From the NCBI GenBank assembly GCA_002269645.1, contig NIVC01001157.1, positions 186,001 through 250,000 of the forward strand: DNA of 64,000 nucleotides, written 5' to 3'. A program made the position numbers and the translations under genes. The notes under the pieces were generated by a model. It saw nothing but the letters and a program-made list of their open reading frames with translations. It was not told the origin of the DNA and did no database searches. The stretch is from Macrostomum lignano (taxonomy: Eukaryota). Numbering within the stretch: the stretch's first letter is position 1; every line of letters starts with the position of its first letter. This document shows positions 29,839 through 64,000 of the stretch, piece by piece.

Positions 29839-32800
29839 TCAACGCCAAACAAAGCCAGCTTGCACAGACCACACGGCGGCAGCAGCGAACAGCCACTCCT
29901 TGCCGAAGGTGCCTCGACGCCCCAGGCCGCCGCTGCCGCGGCTGCTCCTCCAGCCGACTACGTCTACATCGTGGGGCTTCATCGGCGTCCTGAACACCAG
30001 GACCTCGCTGCGCTCAGACAAACCCAAACTGTTGCCAACTCGAACCTGGATTTCGTAGTGCGCGCCCGGCAACAGGCGCTCGATTCGATAGGCGGTCTGT
30101 CCGGGCGGCAGCCGGGGGTTCAGCGAGTGCCAGCCGGTCAGCACTCGACGGACAACCGGCCGATTGTCCGGCCCGGCCTCGGCCAGCACCTGTCGGATGC
30201 GGATGCGATAGCGGTCCACGGGCAGGCCGCCATTGTTCAGCACCCGCCAGCGCAGCAGGAACGCTCGAGGGTCCTCGCTGAAGAAGTCTTCAACTAGGCG
30301 GAAGCTGGTTGGCGGGGTGAGTTCCCCGGTGGTGTAGTTGATGCTGGCGCGACCGCCCACTCCGGCGAGGTTCCTGGCGGCGATGTACACCTTGTAGTTG
30401 GTGTTGGGCTGCAGGTAGCGGATCTGCAACCGAGTCAGGCGGAAAAGCTTGGTTAGAAGAGCTGGTTTGCAATTTCCTTAGCTGGTGTTTTAAGACCTGT
30501 GATTTATGGACTAATAATGTTCCCTGGTGCCAAAGCCCCTGGTGCTAAAGCCCCTGGTGCTAAAGCCCCTGGTGCTAAAGCCACTGGTGCTAAAGCTGCT
30601 GGTACTAAAGCCCCTGGTGCTAAAGCCCCTGGTGCTAAAGCTTCTTGGAGCTAAAGCCCCTGGTGCTGGCGCCCCTCCCCCAGCTCACGGTGATTCGGCC
30701 GTCATCCAGGTTGAATGCTGCCGGCCCGATCTCGGGTCCATCGTTGACCCTGTAGTTCAGCTCGTAGCCGACCAGGCGGACTCCGCCGGTGTCCTCGGGC
30801 GGTACAATGGCGAAGGCCAGGCTGGTTGGCGTGCTCTCCTCCTTGTTGATGATCACATCCGGTGTGCCCGGCCGTCTGGCCTCCAGCAGCAGCACCGCGG
30901 GAGACTCAACCGAGCCGAACTGATTGGTTGCTAGGCAAACGTACCGGCCGAACACGGGCGCGCCGGGAGCGAGTGGCGACACTCGAAGCGTCGATGTGGA
31001 CGCGTCGCTCGGTTTGGCGACGTCCTCGGAGGTCGCCGAGACGCCCGGAGTGTCCAGCAGAGGCAGCGGAACTCCGTTGAGCTGCCAGGTGATGTCTGGC
31101 GGCGGATTGCCGCGAGCTGAGCAGCGCAGCAGCGTCTCGTGATGCTGCCAGGTGTACCGCTGTGCCGGCTGGGACGGCTCCAGCACCTGCGGCGGGTACA
31201 GCACCTCCAGCAGGCCTGTGTAGGTTGCAGTACCTGACAGGGTGCTGGCGATGCAGGTGTACCTGCCACCGTCCGACGGTTGGAGGTCTGCTCAAAATTT
31301 ATGGGGGGTTTTTAAGGGGAGCATTGTGAGTGGTTTTTTGAATTTTATCAGCCCGTAATATAAGTTCTTTGAGACCATTGAAATATGAAGGGTATAAGTT
31401 TCTGAGGGATTTGAGTTTATTGAGACTTGAGTTTATAGGGATTTAAGTTTACTGAGATTTGAGTTTATTGAGATTTGAGTTTATTGAGATTTGAGTTTAT
31501 TGGGATTTGAGTTTATAGGGATATTTTTTTAATTGGTATTTGGAGCATTGAAGCAAGGTATTATGGATCGAAAAAATAAGTCTCAATGCGAGGCCGCAAG
31601 GAGTAATGGGGAAATCACAGGCTTCATTTGCCTTGAACAAGTAATAAGCAATGAAAGGCATTTTCGCCACTGGATATAATAATTAATCATATGTAAATTA
31701 TAGCATGCACTTCTCCATCTAGATCTTCCCCGCCTTTAGTCTCTAAGGGGTTTTGCGCGCGCATTCTATTCTCTCAGTCAAGTGATAAATGGCATTGGCT
31801 TGTTCTCGATTTCTCATCTCTCAATCCCGGGATTTGAGCTGGCGGGATTAGACTTGAGGCCTGGAAGGTCGAATTACCAATTCATCTGGGTGGGGATTAA
31901 ACAAATCATTGGGCTGTCATCTCCCTAAACAAATAGTACTTATGTCGTACACTTGGTGCATTCAATCAGGGTGACGCTATTTTTGACAACAAAAACAGAA
32001 TATAGGATCTATAATTTGGGATCTGGGGTTTATTTATTAAGTATTAATATATCCAACAGGTAGAATTCCATATTTAACAGGTCGAATTCCATATCTAACA
32101 GGTCGAATTCCATATCTAACAGGTCGAATTCCATATCTAACAGGTCTAATTCCATATCTAACAGGTCGAATTCCATATCTAACAGGTCGAATTCCACATC
32201 TAACTGGTCTAATTCCATATCTAACAGGTCGAATTCCACATCTAACAGGTCTAATTCCATATCTAACAGGTCTAATTCCATATCTAACAGGTCTAATTCC
32301 ATATCTAGCAGGTCGAATTCCATATCTAACAGGTGGAATTCCATATCTAAAAGGTCGAATTCCATATCTAAAAGGTCGAATTCCATATCTAACAGGTCTA
32401 ATTCCACATCTAACAGGTCGAATTCCATATCTAACAGGTCGAATTCCATATCTAACAGGTCGAATTCCATATCTAACAGGTCGAATTACATATCTAACAG
32501 GTCTAATTCCATATCTAGCAGGTCGAATTCCATATCTAGCAGGTCGAATTCCATATCTAACAGGTCGAATTCCACATCTAACATGTAAAATCCCATATCT
32601 ATTAGGTAGAATCCCATATCTAACAGGTAGAATCCCATATCTAACAGGTAGAACCCCACATTGAACATGTCAAATCTCATATCGATTAAGGTACGAATCC
32701 TCCTACTTTCAACACCAGTTCCCTCACCTTTAATCTCCATCTTCAGCTTGGCATAGCTGGAGTTCTTCTCCTCCTTTAGCAGTACCCGGCTAGACATTGC

Positions 32801-35800
32801 CGTCAGGGCGTCTGCTTCAACGCCTCCATCGCTCTCGCGCTGGAATTTCAACCCGATGTCGGCCGCGTCGGCACCTTGGGCACGACAGCTCAGAGCGGCG
32901 CTGCCGCCCACCGCAGCCGAGGCGTGCATGAGGGACTTCTCCGTGATCCGAGGTTTGTAAATCACCTGAGGTGTCAGCCTTTGGCGAATGGTTGGCAGGA
33001 GGATTTATGCTAATCCTGGATTTGGAAAATAAACTTTGCTTATATCTGGGATCTAGGATCTGGGATCTAGGATCTGGGATCTAGGATCTGGGATCTAGGA
33101 TCTGGGATCTAGGATCTGGGATCTAGGATCTGGGATCTAGGATCTGGGATCTAGGATCTGGGATCTAGGATCTGGGATCTAGGATCTGGGATCTAGGATC
33201 TGGGATCTAGGATCTGGGATCTAGGATCTGGGATCTAGGATCTGGGATCTAGGATCTGGGATCTAGGATCTGGGATCTAGGATCTGGGATCTAGGATCTG
33301 GGATCTAGGATCTGGGATCTAGGATCTGGGATCTAGGATCTGGGATCTAGGATCTGGGATCTAGGATCTGGGATCTAGGATCTGGGATCTAGGATCTGGG
33401 ATCTAGGATCTGGGATCTAGGATCTGGGATCTAGGATCTGGGATCTAGGATCTGGGATCTAGGATCTGGGATCTAGGATCTGGGATCTAGGATCTGGGAT
33501 CTAGGATCTGGGATCTAGGATCTGGGATCTAGGATCTGGGATCTAGGATCTGGGATCTAGGATCTGGGATCTAGGATCTGGGATCTAGGATCTGGGATCT
33601 AGGATCTGGGATCTAGGATCTGGGATCTAGGATCTGGGATCTAGGATCTGGGATCTAGGATCTGGGATCTAGGATCTGGGATCTAGGATCTGGGATCTAG
33701 GATCTGGGATCTAGGATCTGGGATCTAGGATCTGGGATCTAGGATCTGGGATCTAGGATCTGGGATCTAGGATCTGGGATCTAGGATCTGGGATCTAGGA
33801 TCTGGGATCTAGGATCTGGGATCTAGGATCTGGGATCTAGGATCTGGGATCTAGGATCTGGGATCTAGGATCTGGGATCTAGGATCTGGGATCTAGGATC
33901 TGGGATCTAGGATCTGGGATCTAGGATCTGGGATCTAGGATCTGGGATCTAGGATCTGGGATCTAGGATCTGGGATCTAGGATCTGGGATCTAGGATCTG
34001 GGATCTAGGATCTGGGATCTAGGATCTGGGATCTAGGATCTGGGATCTAGGATCTGGGATCTAGGATCTGGGATCTAGGATCTGGGATCTAGGATCTGGG
34101 ATCTAGGATCTGGGATCTAGGATCTGGGATCTGTACTAATATGCATCACAGACTAGCAGGGATTACATCGATCAATACTAGCTATCATTGCTACATGTGA
34201 CCCTTGCCTGAGTAACTGCCCAATCCCCCTTTGCAGAAATCCCTACATTTATTTACTTTCCTCTTCAATCTGCCCTGCCCAGATACACAAAATAGACCCA
34301 AAGTGCGTCCTCTTTAGGGGAAATTTTCCATGCAATTAAGTGGGCTCTTGAAGCAAAAATTAAGGATATTATCCCTACTCTAAATGCGAATGCAAACCTG
34401 ATACCCCCTGTCTACACCCACCGCTTGCTGAATCAGCTGCTCTGGGTGAATAATTTTCTGAGAGGCACAAAATCGAAGTTGCCAGATCGATCAGCTGTTT
34501 AGTTGGAGAGTTTTTGGCAGTACTTGATGCAGCGGCATTAGAAGATTTTCCAGATTTCATGTTGCCAACCCGTCTGCTTTGATGCCTGCTGCTTGCATAT
34601 TCGTCCTATAGCTAGCATGATTTTGCTTGTGTTGAAAGAATTGGCCTGTTTTTTATTGTCTACCATCCTTTGTCTCTGTCTCTCGTTTCTCTCTCCTTTC
34701 CTCTCTCTTCCTCTCTCCCTTCATCTCTCTCCTTTATCTCTCCCTTCATCTCTCTTCCTCTCTCTCCCTTCCTCTCTCCCTTCCTTTCTCCCTTCCTCTC
34801 TCCCTCTCTCTCTTCCTCTCTCTTCCTCTCTCTTCCTCTCTCTCCCTTCCTCTCTCCTTTCATTTCTCCCTTCCTCTCTCCCTTCCTCTCTCTTCCTCTC
34901 TCTCCCTTCCCCTCTCCCTTCGTCTCTCTTCCTCTCTCTCCCTTCATTTCTCTTCCTCTCTCTCCCTTCCTCTCTCCCTTCCTTTCTCCCTTCCTCTCTC
35001 CCTCTCTCTTCCTCTCTCTCCCTTCCTCTCTCCTTTCATTTCTCCCTTCCTCTCTCCCTTCCTCTCTCTTCCTCTCTCTCCCTTCCCCTCTCCCTTCATC
35101 TCTCTTCCTCTCTCTCCCTTCCTCTCTCCCTTCATCTCTCCCTTCATTTCTCTTCCTCTCTCTCCCTTCCTCTCTCCCTCCATCTCTCTTCCCCTCTCTC
35201 CCTTTATCTCTCCCTTCATCTCTCTTCCTCTCTCTCCCTTCCTCTCTCCCTTCCTTTCTCCCTTCCTCTCTCCCTCTCTCCCTTCCTCTCTCTTCCTCTC
35301 TCTCCCTTCGAGATCCTTTCATTTCTCCCTTCCTCTCTCTTCCTCTCTCTCCCTTCCTAGGAATAAATAGGAATTTAAGTCTCTAAGCTACAAGATAAAG
35401 TCGGATATTCTACTGGCTTATGAAGGAAAGGAAAGAAGGGTTTGGCTTTCTACGAGTCCAAAAAGTACCATTATCCATCGGCCAAAATTGAACGCCCACA
35501 TACTCTAATTATTAATAATTAACGAGCCAAGTGAGTAGCAGGTTCAAGACTCCCAGAGGTGCTAATTGTTTTGTTAATCCTACAGTAATCTGCCCAACAA
35601 CACTACTGAAACAGGCTGCTGCATTGCTAAAGCATGCCCCATCGATTGAGGCCATGGAGAACACTTTAATAGAACCTGGATCGGGGAACTCCAATCTCTG
35701 TTGCTTGGATTCCAATACTCTAGAACTAGTAGTCCATGGCCCGCAGATGGCAGCCCCCTCCCAACTCTCTCCACAATGAGTTCATTCCCGTCAGTTCCTC

Positions 35801-38194
35801 TTCTGAGTTTCAGATTCCCATCCAACACCGGAGATTACGTAATTTGCTCTCCCTCTCAAGTCAAGTATTGGAAGTGAGAATTAGTTTACTGAAGTGGACC
35901 CGTAGCAAAGTAATGGCAAGGAGATTCATGCATAATTCAATACGACCTTGGTCCCCCACAGATTTTGCACACTAATTTACATTGCATAGTAGCTATCATG
36001 TTGTACAATGCTGAGTAAAAACACTGCTTTCTGAATAAATTATCTATGACGAGTTAGAAACCAGAAAGATATTGGGGAGAAGCTATTTAAAAATACAGTA
36101 TGGAGTGATAGTAATACTATTAATAATAATACAATAATAATATTTATTACACATGCCCCAATGGCCAGATGTGCAACCGACAGCTCAGCCGCAGCTATTG
36201 CGCGGCGCATCTGAAGGCTGCGTACGGCTGTTCAGTCCAAGGACTGGGGGCCGTCGCCACACACCCTCAATTACCCCAGCTAATGCTGGCACCCATTTTA
36301 CAGCTGGTTGAACTGAAGCAATGCAGAGTTAAGTGTCTTAATCAAGGACACAAATTGTTCCAGTGGAATTGGGAATCGAACCCTCGACCTTCAAGTCGCG
36401 AGTCCAACGCTCTAACCACTAGGCTACAACCACCCCTCCCCACTAGGCTACAGTTTATGACTGTGGTGTCATGGCGACCTACTGACTCTGATCCAAGGGG
36501 CCAGATACTGCCTGCATGAAATTCATATTCCCGTATGCAGCCAATGATTTAAAAACTTTTGAGCTTTGAGAATTTTGATATCAGAGTCCTACTTAAAAAT
36601 AGTTTAATAATCCAGTTTATATGAGTAGTCAGAATACACTGCTGCTCATTGATGATGAAGCTGGAAGCATATTGAAGATAAAATGCTACGATAGTGGTTC
36701 ATTTTCAAGTATTGCATACAAAATAGTCAAGGGCACTATAGGGGATTACGATATTCTATAGTTCAGGGTCATTGTGACCCACAGGTCATCTAGGGTCAAG
36801 ACAATTAAAGTCTTAATGAGTTTATGAACATTGTGAGCTCAAAGGTCACTATAAGGTCAAGCCTCAAGGTCATGGTCAGGCTAATAGTCATTCTCCGGCT
36901 TAAAAGGTCATAGTCAGGCAAAGGTCATCGTCAGGCTAATAGTAATTGTCAGGCAAAGGTCATCATCAGGCTAATAGTCACTGTCAGGCTAATAGTAATT
37001 GTTTGACTAAGGTCATTGTCAGTTCAAGGTCACGAACGGGACTCACTCCTTCGTGTCGGTCACCAGCACGCCGGCCTCCTGAATGGTCAGCGTGGCTCGG
37101 CACGCGAAGGTCGGCACGGGCCGCAGGAATGCGGAATCCTCCGATTCGTCCGGGCCGCCCGCCCCGTTGCCCATGAAGTTGAACACCTTCAGCACCGATT
37201 TTGTCGGCGACCGCTGGTCGGATTTCTCATCACGACGGCTGGCGAAGGCGATCTCGGACAAGCTGGCCGGATCTGAGAAGTCAATGGGCCGGCCCTGGAT
37301 TAACCAGTCAATTTGCGCCGGCGGACGCGAGTCCACCAGACAGGCGAACTCGTTAGTGAGGCCCTGGACCGCCTTGCCGCCGCCCGCGCTCGCCACCCAG
37401 GGGCCGCGTAGGATGCGCGGCTTCCGATAGACCCGAAGTTGAACAACTCGAACGTCGATCTGGGCGTCCAAATCTGCGCCGATGGCGGGCAGGCGACCCT
37501 GGCAGGCGTAGGCACCCTCGTCCGACTCCAGGGCTCGCGTCACCAACAGGGTCGATCCGTTGGACCTCACCCGCTCCCTTCCGCCTCCAGCTTTCACATC
37601 CGGTATCTTGCGACGCTCCCGGTACCACGAGATTTGAATGCTGGCTTCGTTTGCGGCTGGCAGCGGCTCGGCCGAGGTGCACACGGCTTTGCCGTCGGAG
37701 CCCTGACGGAGCCACTGCACCGGCGGCGCCGTCAGTCGCAGTCGGCGGGCCACGTCGACCCGAAGGCTTGCCGCGGCGCCCGTCTCTTCGTCTTTGCACA
37801 CGAAGATGCCGGCGTGTCGTTCGGGCGACGCTCGCGGCGCAACCAGCAGCGCTGTTGCTAAGCGACCATTGTCGGCGGAGTCGGACAGGACGAAGTCGGC
37901 ATCGTCCGAGCTGGAGGAGCCGCTGAAGTGGTCAACCGGGCTGCCGTCCGGTGCGAGCCAGAGCAGGCCGCCGACAGAGGAGTCGCGGCTTCTACGAAGG
38001 CAGCAGCTGAGCAGGAGGCGGTCGCCAGCGAACACCCGCTTGGGCTGGTCGCCGCCGCTGATGCCGGGCTCGTTGAGTGCCGGACAATAAGCCGGCGGGC
38101 TGGCGGTTGCCAGACAGGCAGCAGACAGAACGGCAACGATGGCTAGTAGGGCACCTTCAACAAGTGTTTTCCAAGTCATGATTCGAATGGCCAT
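29839..38194 (-). CDS. NCAM/Fasciclin II-like cell-adhesion protein (signal peptide, 5 Ig, 2 FN3, possibly GPI-anchored); complement(join(38194..37047,32978..32728,31287..30689,30423..29839)), 860 aa
   Basis: All junctions GT-AG with consistent phases (2,1,0), total 2583 nt. Ig Cys pairs: LLSCC..FVC, AVC..YAC, FAC..FAC, LSC..YTC, LRC..YVC. FN3 motifs LQPNTNYKVYIAARNLAG and LLPGAHYEIQVRVGNSLG. Confidence 0.9.
30527..30667 (+). repeat. 15-bp minisatellite (GGTGCTAAAGCCCCT) in NCAM-like intron 3
   Basis: Visible. Confidence 0.93.
31409..31518 (+). repeat. 16-bp repeat (GATTTGAGTTTATTGA) in NCAM-like intron 2
   Basis: Visible, about 7 copies. Confidence 0.85.
32045..32662 (-). repeat. 21-bp minisatellite (ATATCTAACAGGTCGAATTCC on +) in NCAM-like intron 2
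   Basis: Visible; same family as 29408-29830, inverted. Confidence 0.95.
33045..34133 (+). repeat. Perfect 14-bp array (GGATCTAGGATCTG)n, about 78 copies
   Basis: Visible; no variant monomers seen. Confidence 0.98.
34680..35357 (+). repeat. CT-rich low-complexity repeat
   Basis: Visible. Confidence 0.94.
36140..36436 (-). mobile_element. tRNA-derived CORE-SINE, apparently full length
   Basis: Minus strand: A box TAGCCTAGTGG, B box GGTTCGATTCC, then GTGTCCTTGATTAAGACACTTAACTCT...CTTCAGTT...CTGTAAAATGGG, resembling the MIR/CORE domain; (AAT)n-rich tail. Confidence 0.85.
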
Positions 38195-40582
38195 TGTTGA
38201 CCATTAGAGTCGCGTGTGCGACGGTTTTGATGGCAGAAAGATAAATTTTTAATATTTACCAATCATGTATCATCAAGCCAAAAGATTTATTTTGTATATG
38301 TAGCTAGGAGCAGTAATATAAGAAGCAGCCTTTTATAAAGACGTAAATAACTATTAAAACGAATTTTCACAGGTTTGCTATTCTTTTAGTTATACAAATA
38401 GCATATAAAACTTGCCAATCAAAATTAGAAAAAAAAGAATTTAGTGGACAAAATAAATACATATTAATGGATAATAGAATGACACAAAAGTTATAACAGA
38501 CTATTTTAAATCGTCGCATAGCTCTTTAAAACTGTTTTATTTAGGTACTCGTAAATTAATAAAAAGCTTCTAAGGCACCTCAGCCATAGAAGTCAAAACT
38601 TTAGCAGTTTAAATTTGAGCAAAAAAATTAGTAATTATTGCTTTCAACTATAATATAAACAACAAAATAGATCAAGGTAAACAAAAATATTACAGCTAAA
38701 CAAAAAACTGCAAATATAAATTGTTAATTATTTAACTCAGACTTAGAAACTACACTGAATTTCGCTTTAGAAATGCTAACTTAATTAATTTTAAAACTTC
38801 TTAAAATTTATAAGGTTAGGTTTGTGCTGACTTTTGTTTAGATGTTTTACCTTTACCTTTTAGGAACGTTGATAAATTTTAAGCAAATCGCCTCGAGTAA
38901 AAAACGAGTTTAATAACTTTTCTAGTTTATGTCTGTAATTTTTCAATTAAAAAATGGCTTTGAATAAAAAATAACTCGCAATTCACGATATCTTAACTCG
39001 ACCAATAAAGTCTGAAGCTTAGGAAAATCGGTTTAAAAAATAGCAGAATCAACTACAAACACATGCCATGATAAAAATTGCTTTAATTTAATAGCGAAAC
39101 ACAGAAAAAAACTATTTATTAATCTACCGAGATTATATATAAAGATCTAGAGGTCGCTGTGTTAGTCTATAGAGAAGTTTTGTTTTAAATGATGAATTTT
39201 GCCATTATTGTTTTAATAGTCGTTATTAAAAAGTGACTACGTCTATAAATATTTTTGGTAATAAATCGCTAGCTTACCTTCTCATTGTACTTAAGTCATA
39301 TACACAAAAAACTTAAGAAATAAATGTATGCAAAAGCAGAGAATTATTTTTGAGTCTTCAAACAAGTACACTTATACACTGTATACTTTGTTGCTCTTTA
39401 CACATACATATAAAAATATTCAAAAGTTATGTACTATAGGCATGCACCCTGGCGCAACGATGTCAGTAAAATGCCCCACGAACATCGCTGCGAAAATTCT
39501 ACGAGTATACATATTTCGTTGACTATACATGTACTATAAAGTACATAAAACGTGCATTCATACATGCCGACTAATTGTCAGATAATGTGTAGATCCTGTT
39601 GCCTTGAGGACTTTACCCTCTTAGACGTGAATAGTTAATTAATTACCCAAATTAATTGATGTGCAGTTAAGTGGCCGCGCGCGAATACGAACCGAGAGGT
39701 CGTGGTGCGGGAGTCAGACCCGTTTAAATGTACCGCGTGTACGCAAACATGTACAAATGCATGTACTGCAAATTTATAGCGTAATTTTTAGAGCTGATCT
39801 CATGAATGAACCTGCGCTGTTCAATTAATCCAAGGTAATGACACCCACGCCTGGTAAAAATTGGCCCACAATTCACTAACGACCGAAGTGAATGTACCGA
39901 GCTACATATTTTACATGCATGTGAATTAAACATGCATTCCTGACCATAAATCACCAACTGACTGAGTACGAGTCAATGAAGTCTGACTAGGAAACAAAGT
40001 TTTGGTCTATCGTAAAAAAATTTTTTTGAAGATTCGAAGGCGAAAATAATTATATTACTAATTATAAATTACTATCATTACTATAATAACACAATTACAT
40101 GTACATGCAATAAGAAAGCTATATAGCAGCAAATATATTTGGTTAAATTTAAACCGGAAAAAATGAAAAATAAAAAAACGGTTTCAAAAAAACAAGAAGC
40201 GCAGGGTTAGTAAGCCAAAAGGTACTGAAAAAAGTCATAATCAGGTGTGAAATTACGAGGGGTGATTTATCTCTCAGAACAATCATTGAAGAGTTACTTA
40301 AACCTTGTTTCATAAAATTGATGTGGAAGAAGCTTTGAGGAGTTCTTGCCAGGCACAAATGCTACTAACATATGCGCAAAAAAAACAAATAACAACAACA
40401 ACAACAACAACAACAAATTGCCTATTTTACATGTCACCTGCAACCACCCTGAATCGACTCTGGGTCGCTTCTTGGCCTAGGTATACCGTTTTCATTGCGA
40501 AATCACAAAAAAAATTCAGAAGCTTAGATTGATTCCCAATTCTGAAAATCCCCTTTTTAAATATCGATTTTGCCATTTTGAA

Positions 40583-40940: not shown

Positions 40941-43900
40941 TCAACTCAAAGAGTTGAAAAACTTGACCCTATTAGGGAACACTTTTGTTATGTCTAATTT
41001 AGCTTTTCGACTGCCAGCCTTGAAGCGGTAGCCCAGGTGTAGAAATTTGTGCACCGCAAGCGTGGCGTTGTCGCTATCGTCCATGCGCCAATTCTTTGCC
41101 TGCAGAGTCTTGCAGCCGGCCAGGGACACGGTCCACCAGCGAAAGTTCACTGCAAATTCACAGTTACCGTACCAACCTTTTTGAATAATTCGGGAGCATT
41201 TCGATGCTGGCAAAGGTGAAGTGTGTTGTAGGTGAAGCTGTGAATTGTGAAGGTGAAGCTATTAGATAATGTGAAGATGAAGTTATTAGAGGATGTGAAG
41301 CTACAATTATTAGATAATGTGAAGGTGAAGTTATTAGAGAATGTGAAGGTGAAGTTATTAGATAATGTGAAGCTACAAGTATTAGATAATGTGAAGATGA
41401 AGTTATTAGATAATGTGAAGGTGAAGTTATTAGATAATGTGAAGATGAAGTTATTAGATAATGTGAAGGTGAAGTTATTAGATAATGTGAAGCTACAAGT
41501 ATTAGATAATGTGAAGGTCAAGTTATTAGATAATGTGAAGGTGAAGTTATTAGAGAATGTGAAGGTGAAGTTATTAGAGGATGTGAAGCTACAAGTATTA
41601 GATAATGTGAAGATGAAGTTATTAGATGATGTGAAGGTGAAGTTATTAGATAATGTGAAGATGAAGTTATTAGATGATGTGAAGATGATGTTATTAGATG
41701 ATGTGAAGGTGAAGTTATTAGATAATGTGAAGGTGAAGTTATTAGATAACGTGAAGGTGAAACTCCTAAACAATGTGAATGTGAAGTGCGTGAAGCAAGC
41801 TAGAACAAACAGTTGGACTCACGCGTAACCAGGCACGTCTGCTTCCAGTCCTTGCCGGGGTCCATCAGGGGCGACATGACCCGGGATTCAAGCAGGGCCA
41901 CGGGAGGCAATTTAGCCGAATTTGACGCTTTCCTAGAAAGGGCACAGTACTCGGCGTACTTTGCCGTTAACAGGCGCGGTCCAGTGCTCTCGAATGCATT
42001 ACCAACTTTGCCATATTGGCTCATCGCATTGATCATGAACTGATAGAATGGATGACCAGGCGCTGAGCCCATCGCTGAATTCATGGCGCTGTAGGGCATG
42101 GACCAGAATATGTTGCTCTGCTCCTGGCGCTCTTGGTCTACGAAGGCTGGTAAACCGGACAGTGCCGGGAAAAATGGCCGCTGACATTCGACGTCCATGT
42201 CTAAATAAATGCCTGTCCGAACCAAAGCGAGTGACATTGGAGCTAGAGCGAGCGATATTGGAGCTAGAGCGAGTGATATTGGAGCTAGAGTGAGTGACAT
42301 CAGACACGGGAGCCAGAGCGAGTGACATTGGAGCTGGACCGAGTGACATTGGAGCTAGACCGAGTGACATTGGAGCCAGAGCGAGTGACATTGGAGCCAG
42401 AGTGAGTGACATCTGACACGGGAGCCAGAGCGAGTGATATTAGACCGAGTGACACGGGAGCTAGAGCGAGTGACATTGGAGCCAGAGCGAGTGATATTGG
42501 AGCCAGAGCGAGTGATATTGGAGCTAGAGTGAGTGACATCTGACACGGGAGCCAGAGCGAGTGACATTGGAGCTAGACCGAGTGACATTGGAGCTAGAGT
42601 GAGTGACATCAGACACGGGAGACAGAGCGAGTGAAATTGGAGCTGGACCGAGTGACATTGGAGCTAGACCGAGTGACAATGGAGCTAGAGCGAGTGACAC
42701 TGGAGCTAGAGCGAGTGACATCTGACACGGGAGCCAGAGCGAGTGACACAGGAGCCAGAGCGAGTGAAATTGGAGATGGAGGGTGACATTGAGCCAGAGC
42801 TAGGGACATTGGATTGCGTGCCAGAAAGGGCAATATTGCAGTGGGTGTGAAACCGGAGTCAGTCAGAGTGACATTAGTGAGATAGTGAAATCGTAGTGAA
42901 ACTTAGGGAGTGCTGATGAAGTCGAAAAGATTACAGGAAAGTGTGACATTTTGGAGTGCCAGCTATGACAGCTGAAGCCACACAAGCCATAAAGCGGATT
43001 AAGACACAAAACTCACCGCCAAAGTGATGCAGAACAATATACCGAATAGAATCGGCTCGCTCCAAGTTGTCCTTGTAGCTTAGATACTTGGATAGAAATC
43101 CAGGATATTTGCTAGCAATTAAAGCTTCAGCATCTGAGTCGGTCCATAGATAATACTGCCAGTCAGGATTTAGTGTCAAGCAGCTATTGATCAGAGGCAA
43201 GTAGTTTTTGTAAACCATTTTAGTTGGAAATGTTTGGTGAATAATTTTTGGTATTGACATGCCAGACCAAGAAGTGGAATTTGAATTAGTTGAATTCCTA
43301 TAATTAGGCATTTGCCAGATTCCATTTATCAGGATTGGCCTGTCTAATTGAGGAAGTTGTCCATTGTGGCCAATGATTTTTGTCATCTGATTGCTGTACA
43401 GGGTAAAGTTAGGCAAGCTGACAAACACGAGCTGAAAATATTGATTTGGGAAAGGGGGAATGCTTTCAGATTGGCTGCATTATACTTTTGTACTTTAGTG
43501 GAAGCCATATTATCTTTGTGTACTTTAGTAGATCTTCAAAATTATAGTAACCAAGCTTTATAATTTTAACTTTTATGATATTTTGAAATAAATTTGACTT
43601 TCAAGTGAGGTATTCTAATTTTGCTCTTGTCTCATTAAATAAAATATGTCTAATCTTCTAAAAATAAATTAAGTACTCTTAGACAATGCATAATTCTCAA
43701 CTTTTGAAAAAGATCCTAAAAATAAAAATCACTGGCCAAAAAACAAGTTTTAACTATTGAAAATGCCTTAATAATTTGTGTTCTATAATACAGTTTTTTT
43801 AGAAATAAGCAATTTTAATTAAAGTGTGCATTCTAATAAATATGAAATTAACTTTTGTTAAATAAATTTATAAATTGTTTATTTTAAACAAACCCACTTT

Positions 43901-55354: not shown

Positions 55355-57974
55355 CTAGTAGAGTAATACTGTTAATATTAGGATCAAGTTTTCGATAGAA
55401 AATCTTTATTCTGGAGAAATCTCCACGAATGTTTTTATTATTCTCTAAGGTACTCTACTGTAAGTAGAAATAAAGCTTTTATGTCAATTTTTAGTTAGCA
55501 ATTCATAGTTTTGTTTTTATTTTAAAATAAACAAATATACATAAAAGTAAAACTAAAAAGCGTATAGGTGAGGTGTGGGTGGTTTGCGGACTTTGAAGTT
55601 GGGGCAGTTTAGAAATTTTGAATTGCCGCCTGCGTTGGAGTTCACGCGTAACGTGTTTAAAGCCGGAAGAAATATCGCGCAGTCGAATCTCGTGGATTTG
55701 TCCGCTGGGTTACTCCGTCTGCCGGGGTCCTCAATTCCGGGGGAGGGTAGTGAGGTCGGGGGGGGGGTTAAAGAAATGTGCTCTTTGGTAGCCGGGTTTA
55801 ATCTGTTCGTTCCAGCCGTTCGAATCGGTGCGCTTCGACGTTTCAAACAAACTTAAACGAAGATCTCGGCTGGCTGATGACGGGGAGCTCCGCCTCTGAG
55901 TTCCTCAGGCTCAGGGGAGGGTAGCTATGGTTGCGGCTGAGCGGTCTAGTTTTGCCGACGTTCAGAATGCCGAATGCAGACTTTGTAGCCGAAATGGGGA
56001 CTTCAAAATAAGCTAAATTTTGTAGAGAGTCTTACTAATAGTAGTAGATCGCTGCAACCACCGCGATTATACGTGGGAAAAGCTCTAAAGCTTACAACTA
56101 GCTTGAGTTCCGCTCTAGCGCTTCTCAGTATACCTCTAAGGGTCAAAATAAATGCTTCCGAGGTCACGAAGGCTAAGACACCGTTTCACACAAGATTAAA
56201 TGGGCCGAAGTAGCAAGTGGCCAAAACCGGATATTACTATTATTATTCAACAAACGCAAAGAGATTATTGGCTACAAACAAATACTAACTTAAATATTAT
56301 TGTTAAATTGCTGGGCGAGGAGTTGCTCGGGTCGGGAGGTCGGGCTTACAATTAGGGGCCTCTCGTAGTGGGCTGTAGCTAAGGAAGGCGGGCGATTCCA
56401 CGGAGTTCGGGCAAGGGCCACGAGAGTCTGGCTGGGAAAGGTGGGGCGCAGACTCCTAAAAAGGGCTCTCATGAACCACTGGGAGGAAACGGGTTACCCT
56501 GGGTGGGACAGGAGAGACACCGGGTGGGGAGAGAGGAGGGTACACATGGTGGTGATGATCAAACACCGGGTGGACCCTAAGGAAAACCACAGACAAACAA
56601 AAATTATACTGGAGGTGGGAAGGAAAATACCTTAAGGGAAACGGATTTCCACGCAGGGAAATGACGTCAGCAATGCGCAATTTACTGGTGAGCAAATCCA
56701 CACGGCGGAATTGAGTTACGTTCGGTGGGAGTAGTGGGAGGCCTTCGCCTACCACAGTAGCTGAGGTCGTAATCTAGCGGTCATAATTAGACAGGTCATT
56801 CAAGTCCTCTGACAGCGAGGTTTTATGTGCGTCGATCTGCCTTAAAGCTTACTAAGAGTAGCGTAATGCTGCCACCACCGTAATTTACGTATTACGGAAC
56901 GTTATATTCTAAGAGCTTGCTTAGTTGAGAATGTTATTTTACGCCCCATGGGCAAAGTATTTAGGATGAAGCCATGGACTTATTGATCAAAGAATAAATA
57001 TGAATTAATGTCATCTATTTTTGGAGAGGCTGGATAATCAGTTCAACCGAGCTGCTACGCAAGATAATTCGCAGATGCCGCGGTGCGGAGAGGCTAGTTT
57101 TAGGGGGACTTAAGCGCTAAAGTAAGTAGTAAATATAGAAGCACGCAATAACAAAGGTAAGCAAAAGGAGCAAGAGCAAGTTCGAAAGTTGGGTAAGAAG
57201 TAAGTAAGAAATAAAGTCAGGATCGTTTCTTTTTAACAGGTAAGCAAAAGGTAGGTGGGTTAAATAGAAGCAAAACGAGTGAACGGGTTCCTCATTTTGG
57301 AAAAATATGTACCTGTCGTAGTCCTATTTTTCAACTTGTATTTAAATATTGCCCTTCCAAGTTGAGGTGCTCGACTCGGAGGGGGCCAGTTGGTGGCTGT
57401 TAAAATTATGCTACATGGTATTACTTGCGCTTCAAGGGAGTTAGTCTTAATTTTGTGGTGCAACTGCAGAGACCCTACGCTTATCAAAAGATGCAAACAC
57501 TGAAACAGAATAAAGAATATCACAGCTGATAGTTTGTTTAAAAGGTTGTTACTGTAGAGGAAGTGAATAATGGGTACTTGGAACTGGACCGGGGGTAGTG
57601 CATGATCAAGATCAATCGCAAAGTTCACCTGGTCATTGAGAAGCGCCTAAGAAGACATAAGCTACTTAAAAAACGATAGACTGTAGAATAGAATTTTCTG
57701 GGTTTGGTCCTTGTAATAGTATAAATATCTTGAGTTCTTTTTAAATAGCATTAATTGAGTGGGCGACTAATCTTTCCTTGTTTTCTCATCTATCTATGTA
57801 GTTATAGCTGATTTTTTCTCCATGCTAACCCATCAATAGCAAAAAATATGCTTCTATCAGAAAAAAACATAAATGGTAAAATGTGAGATACTAAGATGGT
57901 AAGGCAACCTTGGCAGTATGAAGAGTATTGTGGGAGTCTTGAAATTTTTATTTTCTTGCCTGAAATACCTCGAA

Positions 57975-58399
57975 TCACCTGCACTGCATCGACCTGTGCA
58001 CAGCAGATTGCCTTTTCCAGCGTTGTGAGGCGCCGCCCCGTCTTTGCCAGAGCCGAATGGAATGAGTGAGCCGACGCCAAACCTGTCCATCACCAGAATT
58101 TCGTACTTCTGTTGATCTGGCTCCGTTGATAGTAGCAATTCTCTCATGTACTTGTCCCGCTGAAGCAGACAATAGCTCGTATGGATTTGAAAGCCAATTG
58201 CCGATAGCGATCCTTGGTAGAATTCTTCCAGCAAGTTCGTCTCCGGAGTCAAATTCGGGTGTGGAGTGAACGCCTGAACCGGCTCCTTGGCCCAGAGAAT
58301 CTACGGTTCCCATTTCTCCAGTCGCGAGTTCAGGGCCGGATTTCTTAGAAGCGTCGTTTTGCCTGCCGCTAAACCCCCCTTGAGAATGTACGAGTTACA
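57975..58399 (-). pseudogene. Deoxynucleoside kinase (dNK/thymidine kinase-like) pseudogene, intronless
   Basis: Manual translation YILKGGLAAGKTTLL (Walker A, 58378-58355)...EP*ILWAKEPVQAF...NLLEEFYQ...FQ...R...ILVMDR, then frameshift near 58081 to LASAHSFHSALAKTG...TTLEKAIC. Motif order matches the dCK/dGK/TK2 family. Confidence 0.72.
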
Positions 58400-59069
58400 G
58401 CCTCTGGTTTCTCGGCTGTATCATGCTCCCTCTTCTTGGCAAGCTGTCGCCAGACTCCTGCAAACACGCCCAGTGCAGAATAGTAATGTTGCTTGGATTG
58501 ATAGGTGGTATTGCCCCGTCAGTGCTTTGCATTCGCGCAAGGCAGCCTTTCGATTCGCAGGGTGGGCATTGTGTGTGCAAAAGCCGAGAAAGCTGAAGCT
58601 TGGCTTGATTGGAATCCAATGCAGTGGGTTGTAGTCCAATAACTTCTCAGTTTTCCGCTCTTGCGCTCGACTTTACTGGATCAGGCCTTTCACACTCGCT
58701 TCCTGCATCAGTAATTAAATGCCTTAACTGGCTTGACATGACTTAAATTTTTTTAATCAAACTTCAGATTCATTCTCACTTGAGATAAACCAGGCCCCTC
58801 TTTACTGTAACAACCCTTTGAATCCCCCCAGAGGCAGCAAACTCACCACGAATTTATCACCGCCCCTCTCCATTCCTGACAAAAGCCAGACCCAAACCAG
58901 CGATTTATTTTCCGATACATCAAGACAATCTCCCGCTAGCAAACAATTGCAAATGAACAAAGGCCTTTGGACATCTACACAATGTTTTCACATAGATAAT
59001 ATTGTACACTAAATATACGCGCAGATAAACCTCGAGAATGTACGAGTTAGATTTTAGATCTGGTTTGAC

Positions 59070-59481
59070 TTCAACCAGTTCTCACAACCTCGTCCTCACC
59101 TTCGAACACAACGTTGATCTCGTTCTCTAGCTTGCAGCAAAAATTCTCTTCATCCAAGGCGTTCTTGATCTCTTTTTAAACGCTAGGAGCGTTTCAAACG
59201 AGTAGCCAAGAACTTAAAGTTTGGAAACTTAGTGATTAGTCCATTAAACGTGGAAAGTCGCTCAGCAAACTTCGTGCCAATGTCCAAACGTTTAGCAACC
59301 TTGTCTGTTGACAGCCAAAGTTGATTCTTGAGCGTCGCTAGTACTTCAGCCTGCTCTCTTCTGGCCAGACATCTTAGGACCTCTAGGACCCCGCAAATGC
59401 CTCTAGAGCGTTAAATTGGTGTTGCATGTTTTCTTCGTCGCCTTGCAAGCAGCCGTGCATAACTGCTTGGCGTTGACAAAC
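59070..59481 (-). pseudogene. Disrupted ORF fragments whose start resembles a KilA-N domain
   Basis: (G)FVNAKQLCTAACK resembles the KilA-N GYVNATKLCK motif; followed by stop/frameshift-separated fragments REQAEVLATLKNQLWLSTDKVAKRLDIGT and KEIKNALDEENF. Confidence 0.33.
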
Positions 59482-61862
59482 CTAAAAGAAATAATATGAT
59501 ATCATAATGTGAATAAGGTCAAAGTTTTGCTTCCATAAACCTCTAATCTATAAATCATGTTTTCATCCAGTCAAGAATTAAGTTGAAAATTTTGTGAATA
59601 GTCAACCAACCAATCATGCATTCACCAACCAATGGGGGTTTTGGCAGCTTTTTGGATGACGCACAGGGAAGTTCCCCATTTTGAGAGGTTGTGTGGAAGC
59701 TCCTTTTTTCTGAGAACAATGGATGCTGTATGGAGCAGTGTTGGGGGATTGTAAGTTCCCCCTTTCATCCAAAATGTACTATTGCTAATGTGAGAATGAG
59801 TTGATGTCTGCGTTTAGACTCTTTGAGAGTACACACATACTCTCTTGAGAGTACTAACTTGAAATGAGTTTTCCAAAATCCTTGAAAAGTTTTACTTAAT
59901 TTAAATCAATTGAGATAAAATTAACATTTTAGAAAAACCTTCTGAGGGCATGAGGGCGAGGGCACCTTCCAAAGTAAAAAGTCGCTAGAAAAATTAGGGT
60001 CGATTAATTTATAATAAATATTTCTTATATTAGTGGGGAGGGTCTTAAAGCAATTTTAAAAGTAGTAAAAAAGTAAAAGTATAGACCCTTGTAGAGTGGG
60101 GGCTGCCCTCAGCATTCAGTACCCTCACTGTTTTATAAAATATAAACAATACCATATACTAGTTTAGGGGATCCAATAACTAGTAGTAGTGGAAGATATT
60201 AGGGTATGTGGACATCAAGTGAACCATGAACAAATGAACGAGCGAGCGAAGCGAGAGAGTGAATGAGTGAATATGTGAACAACTGACGAAGGAGGGGGTA
60301 TGGCCACATACCTTAATATCTTCCACTACTTACGTTGTTTTTTTCACAAAAATAAAACATTTTTTGGCGATGTCTTTGTAGAAAACTTGGAACAGCTGCA
60401 AAAAAAGAATGAAAAAGCTTTTTTGCTACTGTTAGTACTAAAAAACTACGTGGCTTTATTTTGCTTTTCAATGAGAGCTTTACGCATAGGCAGTGTAAGT
60501 TTTCATTTTTTGTATCAATCTACATCCATTGATCTGGCGCGACAATTTGGACATGTTACACCATTAATTGTTGTTTGACGAAAACAGTCTTAACATATGA
60601 ATGCCCGACAACATGTCATGATCATACGATTTTTTGCATATGTCTGCAGATCAAACAGTAATTCGGTGTTAACTTAGGGTGTTTGAGCTGGAGCTTGATT
60701 TGGTTGAGTTGGATGTTCTCGGAATTCATCCCTAGCCTCATTCAATCGTCTCTGCGCCTCCTGGCACAATAGACGTTGTTGATAGTATTTCTAAAAGTAT
60801 TGAATAGTAAGTGTTTAATAGCTAGATGTAGCTAGGTAAATGAATAATATTATATCTTTTACTTTGAGCGCCTGAAAAAAAACGTTCTTCGTTTGTCCTG
60901 ATGTTGTTATGTCGGTTGGTGATAAAATGTTGAACATCAATTACAACGAGTAATTCTTTCAAATAGCGTTACCGTGTCTCTTTCCTCTAATGACTTACTG
61001 TGTAACACATTGTGTAATGGAATGAGTAATCAACCCCAGAGAACTGTTGATTCAGCGTCAGCGTCAGCGAGTCAGCGTTTTTCAATTGTGTTAGTAGAAA
61101 ATTTTTTCTTTATTTTACTTTTTAAAGGGTAATTACAACCAGACTCGTCTATATCTATACTAATAGCTCTTCTTGAAAAAAAAGATCATGAAAATATGAT
61201 CATGCCAAACCTTATCATCAGTTGGTTTCAGAAGAATTTCTCGAATTGTTTGCTCCATTTTTACTATAGAAACTTTAACAAGTGCTAAGTGAAATCGACC
61301 GAGGGTCGCGGACTTAAAGTCCGATGACTAGCAAGGACATTGACTTCCTCACTCAAGCCACAACGTAACCTGCAAAAGAATACCCAGATATATGAAATTC
61401 TCCTGGGTATTTTCCAGTGGAGAAGATGGGTGGTAGTTTTGTTATAGCTGACTGAATATCTAAAGAAGAACCTAGAAATAATGGTTTACCGAAGGCCATT
61501 TATATAATGAAAAAAGTAAGTAGTCTTAAATTGGATGACACTTTCATATTGTTTTTTATTGAAAATAGATTATTGCTCGTATTAACTCCAAAACCACACA
61601 TTTGATTTATCACCCAATTAACAATACCAAACCCCGTCTGACCTTGATGAGATTTCCTAGCTCGAGTCAACTTTGCTGCTGCCGAACGCACTCGTTTCTT
61701 CTTCTGACGGCGTTGTGTTCCCATCTCACTTGATTCTACTAAAAGAGCCAACTACATTTGCTTATACACATGGGCCAATTTACGAGCAGTATATTTTAAA
61801 CTGCAGTGAAAAGCCACCACCAATACACAAATTCCCACCACCGGCATGACCCGGCGCGTGCA

Positions 61863-62260
61863 TCAGATTTTGGTGCTGCCCATGCCGCCCGTCTCGGAAA
61901 CCGTCACCGGCTCCGACTGTTGGTTTCACACCCTCGGAAGCTGGCCCTCCACAGCTCGACCAACTTCAACAGGGAGCATGGCACAGCGCTCCAGAACCAG
62001 CTGGGCCACGTAGGTCGTACACGGCAGATGAATCTTCTCCTCTGTCGTGTTATACGTTCGTACAGGATGACGCGGAGGTCCCCGGTATAGTCCGGATCCA
62101 CTACGCCACCCTGCACAGTCAGACCCCGATTGGCCCAACTTGAACAGCTCGCGATCCGGCCGTAGGTGCCCGGCGGCAGGATGACGCGAAGGCCTGTGCA
62201 AATTATGGCTCTGTCCCAGGCCTCCACGACCCGGTCTTCACATGTGGCTAAGTCCAAGCC
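61863..62260 (-). pseudogene. dut: Trimeric dUTPase pseudogene, no introns seen
   Basis: Motif I GLDL, II RIASCSS, III GGVVDPDYTG, IV YVAQL, V ETGGMGST; frameshift after VILY, premature TGA before motif V, N-terminus missing. Confidence 0.85.
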
Positions 62261-62429
62261 TAAAAAAGCTAAGTCTACTACTAACCCCCTGCACTGCTAT
62301 CATCCTAGAAAATTGAAAAAAATACGAAGAGAAAGAAGGAAAGAAAGATTGTTGCATATACATTCTATAGCGCACATATATTGTGAGCAGAAAAACATAA
62401 ACAGACAAAAATAGAGAGAACAATTCAAG

Positions 62430-63020
62430 TCAATGACCAAATGGGAGGGACGAGTAGGGATCAACCCAGGCTCGCTTCGTGTCGAAAAAGCTAAGCGCTT
62501 GCTTGTGCTGCTCAAGAAGATAAAGCCGCGACGTAATCGTCCGCACATTCCTCAAAAGCCCGATGATGACAGTCCGATAGCCACCGCCTCGCGGTCTTCG
62601 GCTAAAAATATCCGGCATTCTGTACTTGGACACCACGAAGAATCTCGACTGGAGTCGTGGTTTGAAGCACTCGTGGAGACTTCCTTTCGACTTTGGGAGG
62701 CTTAGCAACCTTGTCTGTTGACAGCCCAAGTTGATTCTTGAGCGTCGCTAGTACTTCAGTAGTACTTCATCAGAAATCCAACCCATTGTGGAGTAAACGC
62801 AGTGTTCTTTTCAAGGCACAAAGTCCGAGGTTGACAGCGCTCGTTCCATGTGGAGATAAATAGTGCCTGCCTAAATTCCATATTGAAGTGCGTAGTTGTC
62901 GATCGTTTTGATCTTTTCCCGAATGGCTTCCAGTTGCTTGGCAACATTCTGGATATCTTGCGCGCCTGTTGCGAAGACTTCAGTAGTCGGTTCCAGAAGA
63001 TTGCTGCGGTAATCGATAGA
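62430..63020 (-). pseudogene. Fragments of a protein-primed family B DNA polymerase (Polinton/Maverick/adintovirus-like) with the core deleted
   Basis: C-terminal KSKG...LYLLEQHKQALSFFDTKRAWVDPYSSLPFGH* matches the typical pPolB tail (K.KG...LS.FD.KR....TLPYGH). A stop-containing frame at about 62756-63020 weakly resembles the pPolB N-terminal region. Confidence 0.62.
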
Positions 63021-64000
63021 CTACCGATAGACACTATCGATAGACATCCCACTTTTGAACGCTGCAAAGAGAGAAGACGCAGCCCATTACTACCCGATCA
63101 GTTGTTTAATAAACAAAAAGCCCAATATTTGCTTACCGTCTCTCACATAACGCTGAGCTAATTCTTTCATTCGGGCGGATTTATCCATAGTTTTTTTGAG
63201 TGCAATGCGATTGTTAAGACAAGACTAGAAAATCTTCCGTATTACTGTCGGTTGGATATTATATTAAAATAAATTACTCAGGGGACGAGTGACCGTGCGG
63301 TGGATTAAGGAGGGTCAGGGTTTGTTGAGGTGTAAGGGGGAAGGGGTGGATCGAGTTAGGAGCCGCTAAAATTGTGCTACGCGACGTAACCTCCCCCATT
63401 AAGAGAGCAGGAAGGGGGAGGGCTGGCTGGTGAGGGGTTTCGTGTTGGCAGCTGCCGAAATTTCGCCAAAAGTAGTAATATAAAATTACGTCCATAACCA
63501 ATTTTTCCAATAGCAAAATACGTAATAAGGTACCCGTCAGAAATTTTATTACGCACATAACTTATTTTTCTATTCAAAATCAAATAGTAAGGTACCGAAG
63601 CAAATGGTAGGGTATTCTAAAGGAATTCTAACTACACTGACCGCACCTACAAAGAACAAAAGAAAGTAGCTCAATAAAACGCGGGAGTCAAATCGATGCA
63701 GTCAATTTTCAGGCCCCCCTCCCCCCAAGCGAACAAAACGCAGTTCAGAGTAGCGCACAGACAGTAAATAAAGTCATTTCTGCTTTACACTCGCTCCATA
63801 ACACACATTGTCTTCTCTACCTCCCAAATAGTGCATTCTGACTACACAATCTACCGCACCACCCACCAAAAACGGCGAAAGAACGAATCTCAATTCCTAT
63901 CAACGAACTTGTCCAAAAACGCATTCACGTTTTATTTCGCTGCATTAAAAGATTTAAAAATCCAGTCGATTGCCAACACTGATTAAGGATCTCGGCGGCG

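What the first reader, a model, noticed from the sequence alone, without database searches (positions are those of the whole stretch)
57975..63070. Decayed Polinton/DNA-virus-like gene cluster with a nucleotide-metabolism module (pPolB, dUTPase, KilA-N-like, dNK)
Seen: four co-oriented minus-strand coding relics within about 5 kb, all broken by stops, frameshifts or deletion and without evident internal introns, unlike the host genes in this window. Known: pPolB marks Polintons/Mavericks, adintoviruses and Polinton-like viruses; dUTPase, dNK and KilA-N are typical accessory genes of large DNA viruses, and dNK is not part of the canonical Polinton core (pPolB, integrase, ATPase, protease, capsids). 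Inference: an endogenised, enlarged Polinton-like virus of this animal lineage, possibly undescribed. No capsid, integrase, ATPase or TIR was recognisable in the window.
Basis: partly seen in the sequence, partly recalled or inferred. Interest (0 to 1): 0.85.

Follow-up and report, generated by a model that had tools for sequence, protein, structure and literature searches.

The report
Polintons carrying their own TATA-binding protein
This stretch is a heap of broken pieces of several virus-like transposons (Polintons); their fuller relatives in the same animal genome carry a gene for a TATA-binding-like protein and a private DNA motif in front of their capsid genes, so they likely switch those genes on with a transcription factor of their own.

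Summary
The relics are real but are not one decayed element. 57,974-63,665 is a mosaic of at least three Polinton families. The dUTPase (83% to family A) and dNK (80% to family B) are Polinton genes, not host pseudogenes. Only 42 codons of the 'pPolB' peptide are pPolB. 'KilA-N' is unsupported.

Full-layout relatives (17.5-20.3 kb, AGTAGT TIRs, 6-bp TSDs) exist in five families with one gene order: ORFX, TBP-like, dNK, pPolB, dUTPase, PLA2X, ATPase, penton, ORF234, integrase, hexon, protease. The TBP-like gene, deleted in the window, is the surprise: Pfam, PDB profile and fold all say TBP, it is under purifying selection, and it has only four close relatives among 1.84 billion proteins. TATAAGC is these elements' top 7-mer, sense-strand only, typically about 45 nt before gene starts. 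A second Polinton group has another TBP-like gene and another motif, [CT]TTAAGAA.

Best model (inferred, binding untested): element-encoded TBP variants direct host Pol II to private late promoters. Against: a TATAAG core is also enriched in TBP-less Polintons, and TBP-like mRNA splicing was not seen. New variant of a known kind.

The parts
57974..58394 (-). dNK relic of Polinton family B; one stop, one frameshift near 58080, about the last 78 codons missing
   Evidence: 82% nt to C1090/C2529; 80% aa to family-B dNK, 25-28% to host-like dNKs; Pfam dNK 19.4 bits
58400..58711 (-). relic of ORFX exon 2 (family B), joined to dNK by a deletion of about 1.1 kb that removed the whole TBP-like gene
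   Evidence: 76-84% nt to C1090/C2529; tblastn E 1.6e-21; C1090 50649 jumps to 51730
   Evidence: 66-71% nt to C2523, C1412, C273, C1113; lies in the terminal regions of the C2523 element; no Pfam/PDB match
60185..60330 (.). hairpin with 31-nt arms ending in AGTAGT, Polinton-end-like; origin not traced
   Evidence: 94% complementary
61161..61552 (-). piece from near the end of a D5-helicase-type Polinton, including a PLA2X-like start at 61499-61356 (the PLA2X reading is by eye)
   Evidence: 81-83% nt to C4788, C5112, C1391
61593..61799 (-). 5' part of family-A PLA2X region, cut before the catalytic domain
   Evidence: tblastn E 1.9e-15; 79% nt
61760..61766 (-). TATAAGC motif, 42 nt before an ATG at 61724; the only copy in 57.9-63.1 kb, at the same place as in family A
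61866..62263 (-). dUTPase relic of family A; about 190 bp missing at the 5' end, one frameshift near 62055
   Evidence: Pfam 46 bits; 83% aa to family A, 41% to host-like dUTPase, clade support 100/99
62427..62549 (-). last 42 codons of a family-A pPolB
   Evidence: 81% aa to residues 1437-1478 of the C1668 pPolB ORF
62553..62701 (-). ORFX exon 1 of family A, joined to the pPolB end by a deletion of about 6.9 kb (ORFX exon 2, TBP-like, dNK, nearly all pPolB)
   Evidence: 89-90% nt to C362/C297/C1391; frames
62702..62759 (-). 58-bp duplicate of 59292-59349
   Evidence: 98% identical
62765..62996 (-). relic of an uncharacterised ORF also found beside D5-helicase fragments on C2974
   Evidence: 74% nt
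63044..63425 (-). repeated segment found inside short family-B-ended elements
   Evidence: 80-90% nt to C1113, C273, C2893, C1153
63471..63665 (+). family-B-type terminal inverted repeat (AGTAGTA...) opening an element that runs right, out of the window
   Evidence: 92% to both TIRs of C2529; 88-90% over 199 bp to C2893/C1153; ORFX exon 2 on the + strand 3.5 kb further right

Best explanation
The locus is a mosaic of deleted pieces of at least three Polinton families, and the lineage behind its dNK and dUTPase encodes a TBP-fold protein that likely binds the element's own TATAAGC-type motif and would thereby bring host RNA polymerase II to the virion, integrase and dUTPase genes. Shown: the mosaic; five families with one gene order, TIRs and 6-bp TSDs; the TBP fold; purifying selection; the motif's enrichment, strand and position; spliced ORFX contigs. 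Inferred: ORFX, TBP-like, dNK and pPolB are made first (no motif lies before TBP-like, dNK or pPolB); the TBP-like protein then licenses the downstream module through TFIIB (the stirrup glutamate is invariant); dNK and dUTPase supply dNTPs and keep uracil out during protein-primed replication; integrase inserts copies. A second group repeats the pattern with another TBP-like gene and the motif [CT]TTAAGAA. The window's pieces lack both TBP-like genes and are taken to be inert.
For: Mosaic. Layout, TIRs. TSDs: perfect in 3 of 5 elements within their contig; 10 of 11 family-A ends pair into five 6-bp TSDs across contigs. TBP identity: Pfam over cut-off in families A, B, G, under it in C, D, none in E; profile hits 35 PDB sequences, all TBP; model pLDDT 89, Foldseek E 1e-9, TM 0.71. 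dN/dS about 0.14-0.15 between families B and C. TATAAGC ranks 1 of 879 7-mers tested: 26 sense, 2 antisense, 3.8 expected. Held-out family G: 6 sense, 0 antisense at the same gene boundaries. 21 of 44 group-I sites and 19 of 30 group-II sites lie 25-80 nt before an ORF start (random 8% and 6%). Motifs are group-specific: [CT]TTAAGAA 33/3 in group II, 3/2 in group I; TATAAGC 32/2 in group I, 4/0 in group II. Only 3 of 50 group-I TATAAG sites fit canonical TATAWAWR.
Against: No binding or start-site data. Polintons with no TBP hit also show the TATAAG core on one strand: TATAAG[CGT][AT] 10/0 in C4788 (2.6 expected, shuffle maximum 6) and 6/0 in C273b (1.0, maximum 4), though TATAAGC itself is 2/1 in 59 kb. 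21 of 44 group-I sites are also within 30 nt of a stop and some lie in coding sequence. The families are kin, so shared sites are not independent. Most group-I TBP-like ORFs have no in-frame ATG before strand 1 and look as if they begin at a splice acceptor, yet the one contig spanning that place shows no joint; the gene is covered in 2 of 4 runs, whose RNA status is a guess. One of four DNA-wedging phenylalanines is Tyr and another is probably lost (alignments differ). High-copy family G lacks dNK and most of pPolB in 3 of 3 copies examined, so dNK is dispensable at least in cis.
Confidence: 0.65

Rival explanations
1. The motifs are promoters read by host TBP/TRF or by another element protein (ORFX, PC4-like, ORF285), and the TBP-like protein does something else, such as acting as a decoy for TFIIB/NC2/Mot1 to damp host transcription or binding the element ends.
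For: TATAAG core also enriched in TBP-less D5-type elements; N-terminal Phe pair altered; metazoan TRF2 lacks a wedge Phe and does not bind TATA (PMC10005294 passage); the genome has a TRF-like gene.
Against: Two groups, two different TBP-like genes, two mutually exclusive motifs; [CT]TTAAGAA is not a TATA box; group II has its motif 74-83 nt before its own TBP-like gene in 4 of 4 elements.
Confidence: 0.25
2. The motifs are 3'-end signals or by-products of conserved codons, not promoters.
For: 21 of 44 group-I and 11 of 30 group-II sites lie within 30 nt of a stop; some overlap conserved codons at the ends of integrase, ATPase and hexon.
Against: Group-II sites before integrase and before TBP-like are 41-83 nt from a start but over 120 nt from any stop in most elements; sites after penton and after ORF234 sit in diverged spacers.
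Confidence: 0.07
3. The four relics are one decayed, enlarged Polinton-like virus with pPolB, dUTPase, KilA-N and dNK.
For: All pieces are co-oriented and Polinton-derived; real elements do carry pPolB, dUTPase and dNK together.
Against: In all five families dNK lies upstream of pPolB, not 4 kb downstream; the pieces match different families at 79-90%; the 'KilA-N' gene belongs to another group; the only TIR end points away.
Confidence: 0.02
4. dUTPase and dNK are processed pseudogenes of host genes.
For: The genome holds host-like dUTPase and dNK genes.
Against: 41% versus 83% (dUTPase) and at most 28% versus 80% (dNK); both trees separate host-like rows from the window's rows.
Confidence: 0.01

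Closest known systems
Polintons/Mavericks = adintoviruses (Polintoviricetes; Starrett 2021 PMC8502044; Barreat and Katzourakis 2021 PMC8097293)
   Same: 15-20 kb size class, pPolB, rve integrase with chromodomain, major capsid protein, PLA2X, AGTAGT ends, 6-bp TSD, most copies decayed.
   Different: TBP-like and dNK genes, spliced introns (intact vertebrate Mavericks are intronless per the passage), all mapped genes on one strand, group-specific upstream motifs; hexon only 30-38% to named animal relatives.
MELD virus with a TBP-like gene in Starrett 2021 Fig. 5 (non-animal datasets; legend only seen)
   Same: A TBP-like gene in a midsize virus with adintovirus-like PolB, so the gene class has a precedent.
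   Different: Listed among non-animal datasets, one legend entry, no motif or mechanism in the text read; here it is fixed in at least six families of one group and in a second group of an animal genome.
TBP-like factors of nucleocytoplasmic large DNA viruses (e.g. vaccinia VETF-l and VITF-3, PMC12917281; BFVD hits)
   Same: Divergent TBP fold (TM 0.5-0.73); in poxviruses such factors read stage-specific viral promoters.
   Different: Those viruses bring their own RNA polymerase and TFIIB-like partner; none was seen in these elements, so the partner would be host Pol II and TFIIB.
Bidnavirus-like segments with thymidine-kinase-like and dUTPase-like genes (Buck 2024, PMC11071296)
   Same: TK/dUTPase genes beside adintovirus-type PolB lineages; a dUTPase label also occurs in Starrett's supplementary maps.
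   Different: Segmented parvovirus-like genomes, no integrase or TBP in the passage read.
Metazoan TBP-related factors (TRF2 type)
   Same: TBP paralog with an altered Phe wedge.
   Different: Host genes; the element proteins group with neither host TBP nor host TRF.

Membership tests
Polinton/Maverick (adintovirus) | protein-primed PolB | tested here: met
   DNA_pol_B_2 72.8 bits in the C1668 ORF; window holds its last 42 codons
Polinton/Maverick (adintovirus) | rve integrase with C-terminal chromodomain | tested here: met
   relatives only: family A rve 30.3 bits (cut-off 32.6) plus Chromo 25.2 (cut-off 25.1); group II rve 47.8; absent from the window
Polinton/Maverick (adintovirus) | major capsid protein | tested here: met
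   relatives only: 102 homologs at E<=1e-20, one named major capsid protein, many F54H12.2-like; no fold run
Polinton/Maverick (adintovirus) | minor capsid protein and A32-like ATPase | tested here: inconclusive
   ORFs of fitting size and place, Walker A visible, conserved across families, but no Pfam hit
Polinton/Maverick (adintovirus) | adenain-like protease | tested here: inconclusive
   group II Peptidase_C5 23.8 bits (cut-off 21.3); group I ORF has no Pfam hit
Polinton/Maverick (adintovirus) | TIRs with AGT-repeat ends and 6-bp TSD | tested here: met
   TIRs 62-196 bp in 5 of 5 families; TSDs; not met by the window cluster itself
Polinton/Maverick (adintovirus) | intronless genes (as in vertebrate Mavericks) | tested here: not met
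   GT-AG joints of 81 and 74 nt
Adintovirus (Buck 2024 definition) | OTU-like domain at the PolB N-terminus | tested here: inconclusive
   no OTU Pfam hit in the pPolB ORF; no profile-profile test
Polinton/Maverick (adintovirus) | virion production | not testable with these tools
   none
TBP family | two-repeat saddle fold | tested here: met
   group I; group II, sequence only
TBP family | four intercalating Phe | tested here: inconclusive
   C-terminal pair invariant; second N-terminal Phe is Tyr; first is Pro/absent or a shifted aromatic depending on alignment
TBP family | acidic TFIIB-binding stirrup | tested here: met
   Glu matching A. thaliana E146 invariant in 9 of 9 element rows (role from PMC10005294 passage); sequence level only
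TBP family | binds a TATA element and nucleates initiation | not testable with these tools
   motif association only
Deoxynucleoside kinase | PF01712 over cut-off | tested here: met
   62-86 bits in families A-E; window relic 19.4 bits
KilA-N/APSES | PF04383 match | tested here: not met
   no fold was predicted, so a remote likeness is not excluded
Nucleocytoviricota | large genome with own RNA polymerase | tested here: not met
   TIR-bounded units of 17.5-20.3 kb filled by the listed genes

The most novel reading that the evidence does not exclude
Animal Polintons have twice acquired (or long kept) a TBP variant that works like a viral sigma factor for host RNA polymerase II: each group's TBP-like protein reads a private promoter code (TATAAGC in group I, [CT]TTAAGAA in group II) and so sets a late gene programme for virion assembly. 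This would be the first identified switch for Polinton virion genes in animals, and the unnamed metagenomic TBP-like proteins around it may mark a much wider class.
Probability: 0.5. Interest if true: 0.85.

Novelty: new variant of a known kind. Interest (0 to 1): 0.68.

Why it matters
How Polintons, which have no RNA polymerase and whose virions have not been observed (passage), turn on their capsid genes is open. An element-encoded TBP with a matching motif gives a concrete switch that can be tested by binding assay, start-site mapping and reporter, in an animal whose copies are recent and partly transcribed. Two TBP variants with two motifs are also a natural experiment in TBP specificity. 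The decayed cluster in the window is, by itself, ordinary.

Tried and rejected
KilA-N: Pfam, PDB, atlas and genome-wide search negative. ORFX as a single-strand-binding protein (a guess from its acidic tail): exon-2 model poor (pLDDT 50), best Z 3.5, atlas blank; undecided. Word-index search with the TBP-like alignment: none of 1,412 candidates passed. DNA context of database relatives: viral and metagenome scans found none; two alignments were too divergent to scan with. So P0001-P0004 and the wider TBP-like set have no known context. PDB sequence searches with the window dNK and the pPolB ORF: no hits. One-clade test for group I plus group II TBP-like proteins did not finish, and that tree is the quick one. 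No RNA holder is listed as RNA on record. Earlier-findings look-ups returned nothing. No complex prediction was sent: a TBP-TFIIB pair would tend to pass by likeness to solved structures. The idea that the conserved C-terminal repeat explains a conserved 5' TATA half (orientation recalled) fits group I but not group II, so it is not pressed.
Full report
Observation. The window is G000:C1157:186001-250000 of a 764-Mb assembly. Six-frame reading and Pfam confirm a broken dUTPase and a broken dNK. KilA-N found no support in Pfam, PDB, the atlas or a genome-wide search. A dNK of a related element is 100% identical to a record that NCBI names a Macrostomum lignano hypothetical protein; it was the only hit at E<=1e-8 among 1,021 candidates. 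The host is therefore evidently this flatworm.

The cluster is a mosaic. Searching the genome with the cluster gave 54 matches, of 40 candidates scored out of 336. One is a 97-99% second copy of the whole cluster; all others match single pieces. 62701-61603 comes from family A (79-90% nt) with an internal deletion of about 6.9 kb. 58711-57974 comes from family B (76-84%) with a deletion of about 1.1 kb. 59605-59088, 61552-61161 and 62996-62765 come from other Polinton groups in which no TBP-like gene was found. The one TIR end, at 63471, opens an element that runs out of the window to the right. The dUTPase groups with family A (83% against 41% for the host-like gene) and the dNK with family B (80% against at most 28%), which rejects host pseudogenes. 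Both trees hold only rows from this genome, so they do not show where the elements first got these genes.

The parent elements. PF01712 gave 48 matches: host-like exons and many element copies. Five families were opened end to end (C297, C2529, C889, C1680, C1975): 17.5-20.3 kb, TIRs of 62-196 bp starting AGTAGTA, and one order, ORFX, TBP-like, dNK, pPolB, dUTPase, PLA2X, ATPase, penton, ORF234, integrase, hexon, protease. Three of the five have a perfect 6-bp TSD in their contig, two do not; 10 of 11 family-A ends pair into five TSDs across contigs. Several copies carry frameshifts or rearranged ends. The hexon has two unnamed relatives at 64-65%, one at 45%, then 38% and below, and forms its own clade in a quick tree. 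Contigs of four runs from four studies, laid on 10 kb of the C2529 element, skip an 81-nt GT-AG intron of ORFX in 4 of 4 runs and a 74-nt pPolB intron in 1 of 4; the runs are RNA only by guess, but the joints argue for spliced RNA.

The TBP-like gene. It is what both deletions in the window removed. It passes the Pfam TBP cut-off in families A, B and G, scores under it in C and D and has no hit in E. A six-row profile hits 35 PDB sequences, all TBP. The model has pLDDT 89 and matches eukaryotic TBP over its whole length (E 1e-9, TM 0.71, 17-20% identity) and large-DNA-virus TBP-like proteins. dN/dS between families B and C is about 0.14-0.15. One query finds 73 matches in the genome. Among 1.84 billion representatives, 4 unnamed proteins score E<1e-30 and the next 121 lie at 1e-9 or weaker. 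In a quick tree these four and group I form one clade apart from host TBP and TRF. The C-terminal Phe pair and the main stirrup glutamate are invariant; the N-terminal pair is altered (roles from passages of PMC10005294). The start codon is not identified, and the one contig across the presumed acceptor is unspliced.

The motif. TATAAGC ranks first of 879 7-mers present in all five families with at least 12 counts: 26 sense, 2 antisense, 3.8 expected. Sites recur before penton (6 of 6 families with G), just after penton (6 of 6), 124-166 nt before the hexon ATG (6 of 6), before integrase (5 of 6), and with variants before PLA2X, protease and dUTPase; none lies before TBP-like, dNK or pPolB. 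Family G, not used to find the motif, has 6 sense and 0 antisense in 10 kb. A Pfam TBP search then exposed a second group with a TBP-like gene 22-25% identical to group I and the motif [CT]TTAAGAA, 33 sense and 3 antisense in five elements. 21 of 44 and 19 of 30 sites lie 25-80 nt before an ORF start, against 8% and 6% for random places (C100 was left out of that count as it is cut by its contig end). The window keeps one TATAAGC, 42 nt before an ATG in its PLA2X piece. Against strict coupling: two of four stretches without a TBP hit are enriched for the looser TATAAG[CGT][AT] (10/0 and 6/0), mostly with G or T at position 7; half of the group-I sites also sit near stops; and related families are not independent samples.

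Mechanism. Shown: layout, integration signature, fold, selection, motif statistics, splicing. Inferred: early expression of ORFX, TBP-like, dNK and pPolB; binding of the TBP-like protein to the motif and recruitment of host TFIIB and Pol II for the downstream genes; dNTP supply and dUTP removal for replication. I put this at about 0.65 overall: about 0.95 for the mosaic and parentage, about 0.6-0.7 for the TBP-motif link.

Comparison with print. Ten full-text searches listed no paper on Polintons of this host beyond one passing co-mention (listing only), and none linking Polintons to dNK or to a TBP-motif pair. Starrett 2021 (passages, section 3.4 and a term search of its one supplementary file, which is cut) names TBP in the legend of a figure in its non-animal section and dUTPase in another legend and in a supplementary map, so neither gene class is unheard of. 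Buck 2024 (passages) has TK- and dUTPase-like genes on bidnavirus segments. Barreat and Katzourakis 2021 (passages) gives the vertebrate Maverick features. Two 2026 preprints (term searches) have no TBP or dUTPase mention. PMC6431247, PMC13134418 and PMC12917281 were seen as passages. Figures, preprint supplements, Buck's map files, Repbase and most subscription papers were not seen and may already note these families.

Verdict. The locus is ordinary debris; the lineage it points to is a new variant of Polintons with a TBP-like gene, dNK, dUTPase, introns and a candidate private promoter code. Interest 0.68; 0.85 if the binding model holds.

Noticed in passing
G000:C100, C529, C84, C878, C130 (L171-L183): A second Polinton group (hexon 29%, pPolB 30% to group I) with its own TBP-like gene (Pfam 79.8 bits), a PC4-like gene (22.4 bits, under cut-off) and motif [CT]TTAAGAA. 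135 of 150 scored Pfam-TBP rows are neither host TBP/TRF nor the C860 type; some rows are second repeats; 5 of 5 such loci opened are Polintons.
   Followed up: partly
G000:C340, C724, C3264 (L153, L185-L188): Family G: 22 equal-scoring TBP-like copies; the 3 opened lack dNK and most of pPolB but keep the virion module, so they probably spread with a helper polymerase.
   Followed up: partly
L072-L082: Family-A ends pair by TSD across different contigs, which suggests flanks swapped in assembly (or by recombination) among near-identical 20-kb copies.
   Followed up: partly
L102 (G000:C1638): Second copy of the whole cluster, 97-99% identical, with about 510 extra bases at window 60942 that match nothing else held.
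   Followed up: partly
L011-L012 (right of the window): The Polinton graveyard continues for at least 17 kb: ORFX exon 2, another pPolB type, integrase and a PC4-like-looking ORF (no Pfam hit).
   Followed up: partly
L144, L146-L147 (C471, C2132): A further dUTPase type; on C471 it lies next to a pPolB-like ORF, so dUTPase occurs in more than one Polinton group here.
   Followed up: no
L038:3-665: ORF with a weak Monjiviricetes fusion-glycoprotein hit (24.7 bits, cut-off 27) near a copy of the 59-kb accessory gene.
   Followed up: no
L017:2790-9476: 2,229-aa ORF with SecA-DEAD-like, helicase-C and weak OTU hits beside the C362 element.
   Followed up: no
window 29839-38203 and 41800-43479, minus strand: Host exons that look like an Ig/FN3 adhesion protein and a glycosyltransferase (by eye), among long minisatellites that fill much of 1-43 kb.
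   Followed up: no
P0005-P0060: A wider set of unnamed 150-220-aa TBP-like proteins from metagenomes, many with a GRP-x-ML loop like group I, separate from canonical TBPs in quick trees.
   Followed up: partly
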